Positions 38,072 through 42,615 of a stretch of DNA of 64,000 bases are shown here, piece after piece. The DNA comes from the human T2T-CHM13v2.0 reference genome, Homo sapiens. A program made the translations under genes and the position numbers. The notes below the pieces were generated by a model. It did no database searches and was not told where the DNA came from. It worked only from the letters and a program-made list of their open reading frames with translations. Where the stretch lies: NCBI GenBank assembly GCA_009914755.4, contig CP086569.2, positions 41,408,001 through 41,472,000 of the forward strand, in the 5' to 3' direction. Each line of letters opens with the position of its first letter. The first letter of the stretch is position 1.

Positions 38072-40197
38072 AGATCCATATTTTTTAAATGAAAAAAAAT
38101 TTCAAAGGTACTCTGCTTGGTACAATAATCAAATGTATAAACTGAGGAATAAAACATAACCATGAAACCTACTTATAACTGCATATGGAAAATACAGAGG
38201 ATAATTTTTTAAATAACATATTTTGAAAGCCTTAACTAGTAATTTGAAGAGTTGGCATTTGAAAGGCCAGTATGAATATACCTTCAAAGCAGCAACACAG
38301 GTTCCCCATGAGAAAAAGCAAACTCAGGGAAAATGAAACCACAAAGGTTCAATCTCTTCTGACCTTTGAAAGACACAGCACAGACAGTGGTCCTTAGGAC
38401 GAAGAGCAGGAGACCCCTAATTCCGTCACCATGGCGATAGGGCATAAACATTGCTGGGTGAGGGCACAATCCACATTGTGAGGTCCAACTGCTGCCAGGA
38501 AGACAGGAGTGCCTTTACATAGACCGAAAGGTCATTGAAGACTCAGAGTTTTGTTTCAAGAACTGAATCCCAAGCCCACACGTTATTAGGCTGCGCTTCT
38601 TAAAACAAGTTATGAGATGGGAAAAAGGGCACCCACAAACATACGTATACATTATGTATATAATAATATACAGTATCATATATATAATATATATAACCTA
38701 TGTATAATATTGTTTTACATCCTGCATCTTATGTTATATATATTGTATAAAATATAATAATTGATAATATATAAGTTTTATATTTATACAATATGACATA
38801 TAGTATATATTATAATTTATGACATATATAATATATGTTATATATCATATATAGAATATATTATACGGTTAATATACGTATTAAATATAAATTATACATT
38901 ATATATATTATATATAATATATCTGTTATATATAATACCCCTTAGGCATAATATATATATTATGTCTATGTTATATATAGTATAAAACAGCACATAATAA
39001 TATGTAATTGTATACATAAAATGCGACAAATAATATATATTATATTTTATGACATATGTAATATATATTATATATTATATATAATACGTTGTATGTATAA
39101 TACCTATATTAAATATATATTATATGACTATGTTATTAATTACATGTCACATGTGTTATATATTATATATTTTACATAGAATATACCGGTTACATACAAT
39201 ATATACTATGTTACCTACAATGTATAATTGATTACATGTAAAATAAGAATGCAATATATTATGTATAATTTATAATATACAATATGTGGAATGTGATATA
39301 TATAACATATAATATATGATATATGATATACAGTATATGATATATAACATACAATATATGATACCTAATATATATGGTATACAATATATATTTTATGATA
39401 TGTATTCTATATGTTTTATATTCTGTTATATATAACTATTTGAAATTATATATAACTGTATAATATTTTATGTAAATATGTAATATAATATATATTACTA
39501 TATAATATATTATATATAACTATATATTATGTTATATATAAATTCATAACATAATTTACATAAAATGTCATAATATAATATATATTATATTATTTCGTAT
39601 TACATTATATATATTACATATCACCCAACATAAGTAACATACATAATATTATAATATAGATTATATTATATTATATTAAATATCATATATATCATGTATC
39701 ATATATTCTAAAATATATATTACACATTATATAATATGTATGTTGTCTATTATGTGATATATATAACTATATATATAATTATATTATTATACATATAACT
39801 AGATAAACATGTACTTCTACATATTTTCATTTATAATGTATAGAATTATATAATCATATATAATTATTTATATTCTAAAAAAATTATATCATTATATAAA
39901 TTATAATATAAAAAATTTATAATATGTACTACAAATATATATATTATATATCATATATGATATAGTACCTTTGTTATATATCATATTACATATAAATGTG
40001 TATTATGATATCTATAATTATATAATTTCATATATAAGATGTATAATATGTATTATATATTGTATATGTTATGTAATATATATAGTATATATAAGATGAC
40101 ACAGGATAAATATTATATACTATGACATATAAAATATATGAGGTTATATGTTACATATAAGGCATAGCACATAACATGTAATTGATATCATATATAA

Positions 40198-40489
40198 TTT
40201 TTTTTTTAGACAGAGTCTTGTACGGTGGCACAGGGTGGAGTACAATGGGGCCATCTTTGCTCACTGCAACATCTGCCTCACGGGTCCAAGCGATTCTCCT
40301 CCCTCAGCTTCCCAGGTAGCTGGGACTACACCACACTGGGACTACACCAGCTGCCACCATGCCTAGCTAATTTTTTGGAATTTTTGTAGGACAGCGTTTC
40401 ACTGTATTGGCAAGGATGGTCTTGATCTCTTCACCTTGTGATCCCCTTGCCTTGGCCTCCAAATTTGCTGGGATTACAGGCCTGAGCCA
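40198..40489 (-). mobile_element. Alu SINE copy (antisense), satellite unit 17, a divergent variant.
   Basis: Same element with a 10-T start. It has multiple private changes: 'gtcttgtacggtggcacagggtggagtacaatggggcc', 'gattctcctccctcagcttccc', 'ttggaatttttgtaggacagcg' and 'ggcaaggatgg'. These are shared with unit 25. Confidence 0.83.
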
Positions 40490-42615
40490 AGATCCATATT
40501 TTTTAAATGAAAAAAAATTTCAAAGGTACTCTGCTTGGTACAATAATCAAATGTATATACTGAGGAATAAAACATAACCATGAAACATACTTATAACTGC
40601 ATATGGAAATTACAGAGGATAATTTTTTAAATAACATATTTTGAAAGCCTTAACTAGTAATTTGAAGAGTTGGCATTTGAAAGGCCAGTATGAATATACC
40701 TCCAAAGCAGCAACACAGGTTCCCCATGAGAAAAAACAGACTCAGGGAAAATAAAACCACAAAGGTTCAATCTCTTCTGACCTTTGAAAGACACAGCACA
40801 GACAGTGGTCCTTAGGACGAAGAGCAGGAGACCCCTAATTCCGTCACCATGGCGATAGGGCATAAACATTGCTGGGTGAGGGCACAATCCACATTGTGAG
40901 GTCCAACTGCTGCCAGGAAGACAGGAGTGCTTTTACATAGACCGAAAGGTCATTGAAGGCTCAGAGTTTTGTTTCAAGAACTGAATCCCAAGCCCACACG
41001 TTATTAGGCTGCGCTTCTTAAAAGAAGTTATGAGATGGGAAAAAGGGCACCCACAAACATACGTATACATTATGTATATAATAATATACAGTATCATATA
41101 TTTAATATATATAACCTATGTATAATATTGTTTTACATCCTGCATCTTATACTATATATATTGTATAAAATATAATAATTGATAATATATAAGTTTTTTA
41201 TTTATACAATATGACATATAGTATATATTATAATTTATGACATATATATTATATGTTATATATCATATATAGAATATATTATACGGTTAATATACGAATT
41301 ATATATAAATTATATGTTATATACATTATATATAATATATCTGTTATATATAATACCCATTATGCATAATATATATATTATGTCTATGTTATATATAGTA
41401 TAAAACAACATATAATAATATATAATTGTATATATAAAATGTGACATATAATATATATTATATTTTATGACATATGTAATATATATTATATATTATATAT
41501 AATACGTTGTATGTATAATACCTATATTAAATATATATGATATGACTATGTTATTAATTACATGTGACATGTGTTACATATTATATATTTTACATAGAAT
41601 ATACCGGTTACATACAATATATACTATGTTACCTACAATGTATAATTTATTACATGTAAAATAAAGAATGCAATATATTATGTATAATTTATAATATACA
41701 ATATGTGGAATGTGATATATATAACATATAATATATGATATATGATATACAGTATATGATATATAACATACAATATATGATACCTAATATATATGGTATA
41801 CAATATATATTTTATGATATGTATTCTATATGTTTTATATTCTGTTATATATAACTATTTGAAGTTATACATAACTGTATAATATTTTATGTAAATATGT
41901 AATATAATATATAACTATATAATATATTATATATAACTATATATTATGTTATATATACTTTTATAACATAATTTACATAAAATATCATAATATAATATCT
42001 ATTATATTATTTCATATTACATAATATATATTACATATCACCCAATATAAGTAACATACATAATATTATAATATAGATAATATTATGTTATATTAAATAT
42101 CATATATATCATGTATCATGTATTCTATAATATATATTATACATTATATAATATGTATGTTGTCTATTATGTGATATATATAACTATATATATAATTACA
42201 TTATTATACATATAACTAGATAAACATGTAATTCTACATATTTTCATTTATAATATATAGAATTATATAATCATATATAATTATTTATATTCTATAAAAA
42301 ATTATATCATTATATAAATTATAATACATAAAAATTACAATATGTACTAAAAACAGATATATTATATATCATATATGATATAGTACCTTTGTTATATATC
42401 ATAATACATATAAATGTGTATTATGTTATCTATAATTATATAATTTCATATATAAGATGTATAATATATATTATATATTTTATATGTTATGTAATATATA
42501 TAGTATATATAAGATGACACAGGATAAATATTATATACTATGACATATAAAATATATGAGGTTATATGTTACATATAAGGCATAGCACATAACATGTAAT
42601 ATATATCATCTATAA

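What the first reader, a model, noticed from the sequence alone, without database searches (positions are those of the whole stretch)
38600..42615. Multi-unit segment duplicated at an 8-unit offset (19357 bp); units 17 and 25 form a divergent subfamily
Units 17 and 25 (Alus at 40198 and 59555) share many private Alu substitutions:
- 'gattctcctccctcagcttccc';
- 'ttggaatttttgtag';
- 'ggcaaggatgg';
- 'acaatggggcc' / 'acagtggggcc'.

They also share spacer variants: 'atgtatatactgagg', 'gaaacatactta', 'ggaaattacagagg', 'tacctccaaagc' and 'aaaaaacagac'. These variants remove a stop, producing the 77-aa ORFs at 40654-40887 and 60012-60245.

The flanking AT modules match as well. Before the Alu: 'tacttctacatattttc', 'ttctaaaaaaattatatc', 'taatataaaaaatttataatatg', 'catattacatataaatgtgtattatgatatc' and 'attgatatcat'. 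After it: 'tacgaattatatataaattatat', 'aaaatgtgacatat', 'atatatgatatgactat' and 'catgtgacatgtgttacat'.

So ~38.6-42.6 kb corresponds to ~58.0-62.0 kb. The immediately flanking Alus (units 16 versus 24, and 18 versus 26) do not match, so this is a bounded block copy of ~4 kb.
Basis: seen in the sequence. Interest (0 to 1): 0.5.

Follow-up and report, generated by a model that had tools for sequence, protein, structure and literature searches.

The report
Shared variant patch in DYZ2 satellite
The window is an ordinary array of the known human satellite HSat1B/DYZ2, and the flagged feature is one unit-length stretch (about 2.4-2.8 kb, not 4 kb) of a locally mutated repeat that sits at two places 19.4 kb apart, as expected from the recombination that constantly reshuffles such arrays.

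Summary

The extent is overstated. The shared block runs from the AT-rich tail of unit 16/24 to two thirds of the way through the AT-rich part of unit 17/25:
- Core: 39496-41906 matches 58853-61264.
- Breakpoints: within 39241-39495 and 41907-42045.
- Length: 2.41-2.81 kb, about one repeat unit in a shifted register.

Inside the core the copies differ at 26 of 2,412 sites (1.08%). The next-best partner differs at 71 sites. In the flanks the lag-8 pair is among the worst matches (3.6-4.0%).

The array is HSat1B/DYZ2: a 2,420-bp unit made of an AT-rich part, a 5'-truncated diverged AluY and a GC-richer part, with 'ACATACG' at the junction. Copies in contaminated public assemblies are 99.1-99.6% identical to it.

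About 37 of the 43 variant alleles are absent from 107 external copies, so this is a local derived lineage. It is neither a widespread subfamily nor a higher-order repeat.

The most likely origin is a gene-conversion-like patch transfer within the array. A relic of an older unequal exchange is the main rival.

The 77-aa ORFs are chance products of one TAG>TGG change. The finding is ordinary and already explained by known satellite dynamics.

The parts
1..64000 (+). Tandem array of about 26.5 units of HSat1B/DYZ2-type satellite. Each unit is an antisense 5'-truncated Alu (~290 bp), a ~560-bp GC-richer part and a ~1.56-kb part that is 86% A+T. The modal unit length is 2,420 bp.
   Evidence: Literature description.
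39496..41906 (+). Copy A of the shared variant block (minimum core). It spans the AT tail of unit 16 plus the Alu, spacer and first ~850 bp of the AT part of unit 17.
   Evidence: 31 private shared variants with copy B. 26 differences in 2,412 sites versus at least 71 for any other partner.
58853..61264 (+). Copy B of the shared variant block (minimum core), 19,357-19,358 bp downstream of copy A.
39241..39495 (.). Left breakpoint interval of copy A (58597-58852 in copy B). It holds no informative sites.
   Evidence: The last informative discordant site is at 39240/58596. The first private shared site is at 39496/58853.
41907..42045 (.). Right breakpoint interval of copy A (61265-61403 in copy B).
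   Evidence: The last shared variant is the 2-bp deletion after 41906/61264. The first informative discordant site is at 42046/61404.
40198..40489 (-). Alu module of unit 17, antisense on the + strand. The unit-25 counterpart lies about 59555-59847. It carries 6 of the 18 private 17/25 variants.
40654..40887 (-). Chance 77-codon ORF with a TTG start. Its twin is at 60012-60245. It is extended from 61 codons by one TAG>TGG change.
61509..64000 (+). Start of a different, somewhat younger shared block directly right of copy B. It is related at a 13-unit offset to 30063-32554 and runs off the window end.
   Evidence: (12,25) share 4 and (13,26) share 8 private variants. The HMM segment has 19 differences in 2,533 columns.

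Best explanation
The window is a stretch of the known human satellite HSat1B (DYZ2).

Within it, one repeat-length stretch had accumulated about 35 private substitutions. This is a local variant I call 'V'. V is now present twice, 8 units (19,357 bp) apart.

Most likely, a non-reciprocal exchange within the array copied about 2.4-2.8 kb of V into a misaligned unit 8 repeats away. This would be interlocus gene conversion or synthesis-dependent strand annealing between sister chromatids. It left both flanks and the repeat register unchanged.

The two copies then diverged by 1.08%. The block has no function of its own. It is a footprint of the turnover process that homogenises satellite arrays.

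Shown:
- the satellite identity;
- the block, its limits and its exclusivity;
- the derived state of most V alleles.

Inferred:
- the mechanism, conversion rather than duplication followed by overwriting;
- the direction of transfer, with a slight lean to A>B.
For: Satellite identity:
- Unit length 2413-2421 bp, mode 2,420.
- Three-part composition, with an 86% A+T module.
- A 5'-truncated Alu about 22% diverged from AluY.
- 'ACATACG' at the HSATI/AT junction. These match the published DYZ2 descriptions.
- Copies 99.1-99.6% identical to the window consensus sit in small contigs of unrelated 'bacterial' assemblies. The T2T-Y paper reports exactly this as HSat1B contamination.

The block:
- 26 differences in 2,412 sites at lag 8, against 71-98 for every other partner.
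- In the flanks the lag-8 pair ranks 19th-20th of 24-25.
- Bootstrap support is 96-100% in all four modules and 100% in the shifted register.

Derived and local:
- No external copy carries more than 6 of 43 V alleles.
- About 37 of 43 V alleles are absent or near-absent in both the near-identical and the divergent external classes.

One event with two nearby ends:
- Only 2.4-2.8 kb of the 19.4-kb offset is shared. Pairs 15/23 and 18/26 show no lag-8 relation.
- The same array holds a cleaner, younger bounded patch shorter than one unit. It is 21120-22776 versus 28368-30024, with 3 differences in 1,659 columns, flanked by 12/254 and 11/509. A single unequal crossover cannot make this.
- Both sides of copy B carry private variants shared with units at the same 13-unit offset: unit 11 on the left, units 12-13 on the right. 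This suggests a replacement that did not shift the register.

Literature (PMC12240836): 29% of de novo SNVs in Yq12 look like interlocus gene conversion within DYZ1/DYZ2.
Against: - The right edge of copy B (61265-61403) abuts the start of the lag-13 block (first private 12/25 site at 61509). That edge could therefore be secondary, made by a later event that overwrote a longer lag-8 similarity.
- The lag-13 relation on the left flank (units 11/24) is much older (11 differences in 326 columns) than that on the right (19 in 2,533). The two flanks need not belong to one background segment.
- A tract of 2.4-2.8 kb is long for a typical mammalian conversion tract (general knowledge, not tested here).
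- The chromosome and species of the window could not be checked against a reference assembly.
Confidence: 0.55

Rival explanations
1. Relic of an older multi-unit tandem duplication by unequal sister-chromatid exchange. A segment that included V was duplicated. Later expansions, deletions and conversions overwrote everything except about one unit and also set the present 8-unit spacing.
For: - Unequal exchange and iterative tandem duplication are the documented mode of evolution of DYZ2 arrays.
- Whole-unit gains and losses of 2,416-4,839 bp arise about once per Y transmission.
- The V pair is older (1.08%) than the recently expanded clusters around it: units 4/7 differ at 8 sites, 20/21 at 12, 3/8 at 13 and 18/20 at 16. 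Later overwriting is therefore plausible.
- Copy B's right edge abuts the junction of the lag-13 block.
Against: - It needs at least two later events that happen to end within a few hundred bp of each side of a single unit.
- No trace of lag-8 similarity remains in any of the other seven unit pairs.
- The left flank of copy B shares private variants with unit 11 at the same 13-unit lag as the right flank. A simple two-junction model does not predict this.
Confidence: 0.3
2. Insertion of exactly one unit. A monomer-length piece of V entered the array 8 units away by homologous recombination. The piece could be an excised extrachromosomal circle or a single-unit structural variant. This would give a block of exactly one repeat length with both ends at the same phase.
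For: - The two breakpoint intervals (alignment columns 1457-1712 and 1707-1845) overlap at columns 1707-1712. The block is therefore compatible with exactly one unit.
- With 31 private sites per 2.4 kb, about 3.2 private sites would be expected if V filled the 251-column left interval, and none is seen. This is my own Poisson estimate from the counts. The left end therefore probably lies close to 39496.
- Single-unit de novo structural variants are frequent in DYZ2.
Against: - The length interval (2.41-2.81 kb) is too wide to show an exact unit.
- Other bounded patches in the same array are not unit-length, at 1.66 and 1.85 kb.
- Both flanks of copy B relate to partners at the same 13-unit lag. 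That argues against a net gain of one unit at that site after the lag was set.
- Known single-unit variants are local tandem gains, not transfers over 19 kb.
Confidence: 0.07
3. V is a member of a widespread DYZ2 subfamily or of a higher-order repeat. The two copies are then just two samples of it.
For: - Units 17 and 25 are the most divergent from the window consensus, at 2.02% each.
- Five or six V alleles (columns 35, 385, 1240, 1758, 2204, 2272) are common in the divergent external class.
Against: - None of 107 external copies carries the V haplotype. The maximum is 6 of 43 alleles, and those are ancestral-type sites.
- The position 8 units upstream (units 8/9) is not V.
- Caveat: short-read contigs of satellites tend toward the consensus, so absence from them is weak evidence.
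Confidence: 0.05
4. Assembly artefact: a falsely duplicated repeat unit in a satellite that is hard to assemble.
For: Satellite arrays are prone to mis-assembly (general knowledge).
Against: - The copies differ at 26 sites spread along the block.
- Each copy carries its own singletons: 10 in A and 16 in B, 13 of B's carried by no other unit.
- The copies sit in different flanks. False duplications give identical copies.
Confidence: 0.02

Closest known systems
HSat1B / DYZ2 satellite of human Yq12 (smaller arrays on acrocentric short arms)
   Same: - Unit of about 2.4 kb with a 2,420-bp mode.
- An AT-rich part, a 5'-truncated Alu about 20% diverged from AluY, and a GC-richer HSATI part.
- 'ACATACG' at the HSATI/AT junction.
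- Units 98-99.2% identical to the consensus.
- Near-identical copies occur as contaminants in bacterial assemblies.
   Different: Nothing structural. The window consensus differs from the majority of external copies at 13 of 2,420 positions. Unit-to-unit divergence (median about 2.5%) is at the high end, as reported for peripheral blocks. The chromosome of origin was not determined.
Interlocus (non-allelic) gene conversion within DYZ1/DYZ2 repeats (Porubsky et al. 2025, PMC12240836)
   Same: Variants move between non-orthologous repeat units of the same array without changing the array register. The result is a bounded patch with unrelated flanks.
   Different: The published evidence is single de novo SNVs with identical matches elsewhere. 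Here the tract is a whole 2.4-2.8 kb, and it is old (1.08% divergence), not de novo.
Alpha-satellite-type higher-order repeats
   Same: A variant unit recurs at an integer multiple of the basic period.
   Different: There is one recurrence only. The other seven units of the putative period do not match, and the position 8 units upstream is not V.

Membership tests
HSat1B / DYZ2 satellite | Tandem repeat unit of about 2.4 kb (2,413 bp as first delimited; 2,420-bp consensus) | tested here: met
   25 complete units of 2413-2421 bp, 11 of them exactly 2,420 bp. Published values.
HSat1B / DYZ2 satellite | Three-part unit: an extremely AT-rich region (>85% AT), an ancient 5'-truncated AluY about 20% diverged, and a more GC-rich (HSATI) region | tested here: met
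   The AT module is 86% A+T. A GC-richer spacer follows. Published description.
HSat1B / DYZ2 satellite | 'ACATACG' at the junction of the HSATI part and the AT-rich part | tested here: met
   '...CACCCACAAACATACGTATAC...' is found in 22 of the 25 units by the search pattern. One further unit has ACATATG, and two units did not fit the search pattern.
HSat1B / DYZ2 satellite | High sequence identity to a reference DYZ2 consensus | tested here: inconclusive
   No human reference is available in these tools. Indirect evidence: the window consensus is 99.1-99.6% identical to contigs in about a dozen unrelated bacterial assemblies. The T2T-Y paper attributes such contigs to HSat1B contamination.
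HSat1B / DYZ2 satellite | Location in Yq12 or on acrocentric short arms of the human genome | not testable with these tools
   No human assembly can be searched here.
Higher-order repeat with an 8-unit period | All units of the period recur at the same offset, repeatedly along the array | tested here: not met
   Only one unit-length stretch matches at lag 8. Pairs 15/23 and 18/26 do not match, and lag -8 from copy A is not among its best partners.
Recent tandem segmental duplication by unequal exchange | Collinear similarity over the whole duplicated length, equal to the offset of 19.4 kb | tested here: not met
   Similarity covers 2.41-2.81 kb of 19.36 kb.
Interlocus gene-conversion tract | A bounded patch of shared variants, both flanks unrelated, and no change of repeat register | tested here: inconclusive
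   The bounded patch and unrelated flanks are shown. An unchanged register is suggested by lag-13 partners on both sides of copy B. However, those two flank relations differ in age, and the right edge abuts another block's junction.
Protein-coding gene (the 77-aa ORFs) | Conserved reading frame, recognisable family, or evidence of constraint | tested here: not met
   All 24 other units that cover this site have a stop at this codon. The ORF has a TTG start and no Pfam match at E<=1. All 5 nucleotide differences between the two copies are non-synonymous.

The most novel reading that the evidence does not exclude
The block may be exactly one repeat unit long because it was moved as a monomer-length piece. 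One route is an excised extrachromosomal circle that re-entered the array 8 units away. That would be sequence-level evidence for circle-mediated or unit-quantised dispersal of satellite variants, as opposed to ordinary conversion or unequal exchange.
Probability: 0.06. Interest if true: 0.4.

Novelty: already known. Interest (0 to 1): 0.1.

Why it matters
It matters little. The result shows that a striking-looking 'duplicated block' inside a satellite array is an expected footprint of intra-array recombination in a well-described human satellite. It carries no gene or regulatory element.

Its only modest value is as a worked example. Bounded patches of 1.7-2.8 kb, consistent with interlocus gene conversion, can be read directly from one 64-kb stretch of DYZ2. 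This complements published evidence from pedigrees, which rests on single nucleotides.

Tried and rejected
1. **Higher-order repeat at 8 units.** Rejected. No other unit pair matches at lag 8, and there is no V copy 8 units upstream.
2. **A ~4-kb block as proposed.** Rejected. The flanks 38600-39244 and 42046-42620 are among the worst lag-8 matches.
3. **Ancestral relic (V alleles as retained ancestral states).** Mostly rejected. Only 5-6 of 43 V alleles are common in the divergent external class. At column 92 V matches the AluY consensus, but both external classes carry G, so that is probably a back-mutation.
4. **Widespread subfamily.** No V haplotype was found in 107 external copies. This is weak evidence, because short-read contigs lean toward the consensus.
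5. **Recombination hotspot at the block ends.** The ends fall in or near the internal 22-bp sub-repeat zone of the AT part. By hand count, only 9 of 27 distinct segment ends lie in columns 1460-1915, against 19% expected. The ends are not independent, so this is not significant.
6. **Coding potential of the ORFs.** None found.
7. **Structured RNA.** The only hit is a sub-threshold match to the mir-1268 family in the Alu, at 35 bits against a gathering score of 83.
8. **Full event-by-event reconstruction of the array history.** Not achievable. Several orders of events fit the mosaic.
9. **Artificial origin of the variation.** I wondered about this because transitions/transversions is below 1. 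External public copies show similar ratios (0.7-1.5), so I dropped it.
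Full report
**What the window is**

The 64-kb window is a single tandem array. An anchor at the start of the Alu part occurs 26 times, spaced 2413-2421 bp apart. Units 17 and 25 start at 40204 and 59561, which are 19,357 bp apart. G+C content swings between about 14% and about 40% with that period.

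Each unit has three parts:
- an antisense Alu of about 290 bp;
- a part of about 560 bp with normal G+C;
- a part of about 1.56 kb that is 86% A+T and is full of short internal sub-repeats.

The Alu part aligns to the reverse complement of an AluY consensus over 276 of 289 positions at 78% identity. About 13 nt are missing from the Alu 5' end, and there is a 15-bp internal duplication.

All of this matches the published description of HSat1B/DYZ2:
- The T2T-Y paper describes a tandem repeat of about 2.5 kb. [quoted passage not shown] Their final consensus is 2,420 bp and includes 'ACATACG' at the HSATI/AT junction.
- Here the modal unit is 2,420 bp and the junction reads CACCCACAAACATACGTATAC.

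A 27-nt spacer pattern found the same satellite elsewhere. It occurs in 18 contigs of unrelated 'bacterial' assemblies and in 45 metagenome contigs. About a dozen of the 'bacterial' contigs are 99.1-99.6% identical to the window consensus. The T2T-Y paper reports exactly this kind of HSat1B contamination. I could not place the window on a chromosome.

**Checking the observation**

In a MAFFT alignment of the units, 17 and 25 differ at 44 sites, against a median of about 80 to other units. Units 16 and 24 differ at 43 sites, against about 70.

Of 88 alleles carried by exactly two units, 18 belong to pair 17/25 and 13 to pair 16/24. Binomial P is 3e-28 and 8e-19.

The positions of those sites are the key result:
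- The 17/25 sites lie in alignment columns 20-1668 of the unit.
- The 16/24 sites lie in columns 1713-2402.

The shared stretch therefore starts in the AT-rich tail of unit 16/24. It runs through the Alu and spacer of unit 17/25 and stops two thirds of the way through the next AT-rich part.

In window coordinates:
- The core is 39496-41906 versus 58853-61264.
- The last informative discordant site on the left is at 39240/58596.
- The first informative discordant site on the right is at 42046/61404.
- The length is 2,411-2,805 bp, which is 1.0-1.16 units.

Within the core the lag-8 pair differs at 26 of 2,412 sites (1.08%). The next-best partner differs at 71 sites and the median is 84. In 38600-39244 and 42046-42620 the lag-8 pair differs by 3.6% and 4.0%, ranking 20th and 19th of 24-25.

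A two-state HMM run over all lags recovers the same segment, 16.1462 to 17.1798 in unit.column terms.

NJ bootstrap support for the pair is as follows:

| Module | Pair | Support |
|---|---|---|
| Alu | 17+25 | 99.7% |
| Spacer | 17+25 | 96% |
| First AT part | 17+25 | 100% |
| Last AT part | 16+24 | 100% |
| Units re-cut in the shifted register | shifted units s16+s24 (the two V copies) | 100% |
| All four modules | control pairs | 0% |

The pairing is real and bounded, but the block is one unit long rather than about 4 kb.

**Is it a subfamily?**

Units 17 and 25 are the most divergent from the window consensus, at 2.02%. Units 24, 10 and 11 are nearly as divergent, at 1.98%, 1.94% and 1.82%.

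I genotyped 107 external copies at the 43 sites where both block copies depart from the consensus. Of these copies, 51 are at least 97% identical to the window consensus and 56 are 75-96% identical. None carries the haplotype; the maximum is 6 of 43 alleles.

About 37 of the 43 alleles are absent or nearly absent in both external classes. Only columns 35, 385, 1240, 1758, 2204 and 2272 look like retained older states. V is therefore a locally derived lineage with two known members. One caveat applies: short-read contigs of satellites lean toward the consensus.

There is no higher-order repeat. No other unit pair matches at lag 8, and the position 8 units upstream is not V.

**The ORFs**

The T>C change at 40702/60060 converts TAG to TGG on the minus strand in units 17 and 25 only. 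This extends a 61-codon frame to 77 codons.

Nothing points to coding:
- The frame starts with TTG.
- It has no Pfam match at E<=1.
- All five nucleotide differences between the two copies change the amino acid.

**How it arose**

The array is a mosaic of segments related at many different offsets:
- Tight recent clusters include units 4/7 (8 differences), 20/21 (12), 3/8 (13), 18/20 (16) and 6/9 (18).
- A block at lag 13 matches 30063-32554 to 61509-64000, with 19 differences in 2,533 columns.
- A sharply bounded patch shorter than one unit matches 21120-22776 to 28368-30024. It has 3 differences in 1,659 columns, and its flanks differ at 12/254 and 11/509.

One unequal crossover cannot produce a patch with two ends inside a single unit. 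That patch therefore shows that conversion-like transfers operate in this array.

The V pair looks like an older example of the same process:
- Only 2.4-2.8 kb of the 19.4-kb offset is shared.
- Both flanks are unrelated.
- Both sides of copy B share private variants with units at the same 13-unit offset: unit 11 at 58271-58596, and units 12-13 from 61509. This suggests replacement without a change of register.

This fits published pedigree data for Yq12. There, 29% of de novo SNVs have identical matches elsewhere and are attributed to interlocus gene conversion within DYZ1/DYZ2. Whole-unit structural variants of 2,416-4,839 bp arise about once per transmission.

The main rival is a relic of an older unequal-exchange duplication whose other units were later overwritten. 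Three observations favour it:
- Copy B's right edge abuts the lag-13 block.
- The V pair is older than the surrounding recent clusters.
- The 11/24 relation is much older (11 differences in 326 columns) than the 12-13/25-26 relation.

The data also allow an exactly unit-length insertion, because the two breakpoint intervals overlap at columns 1707-1712. They do not require it. Other patches in the array are 1.66 and 1.85 kb.

An assembly artefact is unlikely. The copies differ at 26 dispersed sites and sit in different flanks.

**Rough dating**

This is inference only and is valid only if the array lies in Yq12. The published rate is 3.86e-7 per bp per generation. At that rate, 1.08% divergence corresponds to about 14,000 generations.

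**Verdict**

It is overstated on size and on 'subfamily'.

The feature is an ordinary footprint of known satellite turnover in a known human satellite. It has no function of its own.

Noticed in passing
window 21120-22776 and 28368-30024 (units 9 and 12; also unit 6, about 13930-15420): A sharply bounded patch shorter than one unit, shared at a 3-unit offset. It has 3 differences in 1,659 columns, while the flanks differ at 12/254 and 11/509. It is a cleaner and younger conversion-like tract than the one in the finding.
   Followed up: partly
window 30063-32554 and 61509-64000: A block shared at a 13-unit offset (units 12-end/13 versus 25-end/26), with 19 differences in 2,533 columns. It runs off the right end of the window and starts within about 250 bp of the right edge of copy B.
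   Followed up: partly
whole window: The transition/transversion ratio among unit variants is below 1 in every module: Alu 24:43, spacer 29:46, AT part 135:156. External public copies give 0.7-1.5. This is unusual next to the genome-wide value of about 2. It agrees in direction with the shifted mutation spectra reported for the acrocentric short arms, which carry these satellites, and for segmental duplications.
   Followed up: partly
L006 5897-6920 (NZ_HF570958.1, Nostocoides japonicum T1-X7, 5.16-Mb scaffold); also L001-L018: About 1 kb of this human-type satellite (98% identical to the window consensus) lies inside a 5.16-Mb bacterial scaffold, not just in a small stray contig. Seventeen other 'bacterial' assemblies carry it as short contigs. 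It looks like human contamination or a chimeric assembly.
   Followed up: no
window 60074-60151 (unit 25, alignment columns 514-591): Five of the 26 differences between the two block copies cluster within 78 bp of copy B. Two of them are alleles common in other units. This may be a small secondary conversion patch.
   Followed up: no
units starting at 8783, 16034 and 23285: Three units are 2,413 bp instead of 2,420 bp, yet they still contain 'ACATACG' at the HSATI/AT junction. Their 7-bp shortfall lies elsewhere and was not located.
   Followed up: no
window 40303-40369 (minus strand), repeated in each unit: A sub-threshold Rfam match to the mir-1268 precursor family (35 bits against a gathering score of 83) lies inside the Alu module. 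It most likely reflects Alu-derived sequence only.
   Followed up: no
window 1-23000 versus 23000-42000 and 52000-62000: Divergence along the array is uneven. Units 0-9, 12 and 18-21 form tight recent clusters with 0-11 singletons each, apart from unit 2 with 18. Units 10, 11 and 22 carry 23-34 singletons each, and units 16, 17 and 23-25 carry 13-15.
   Followed up: partly
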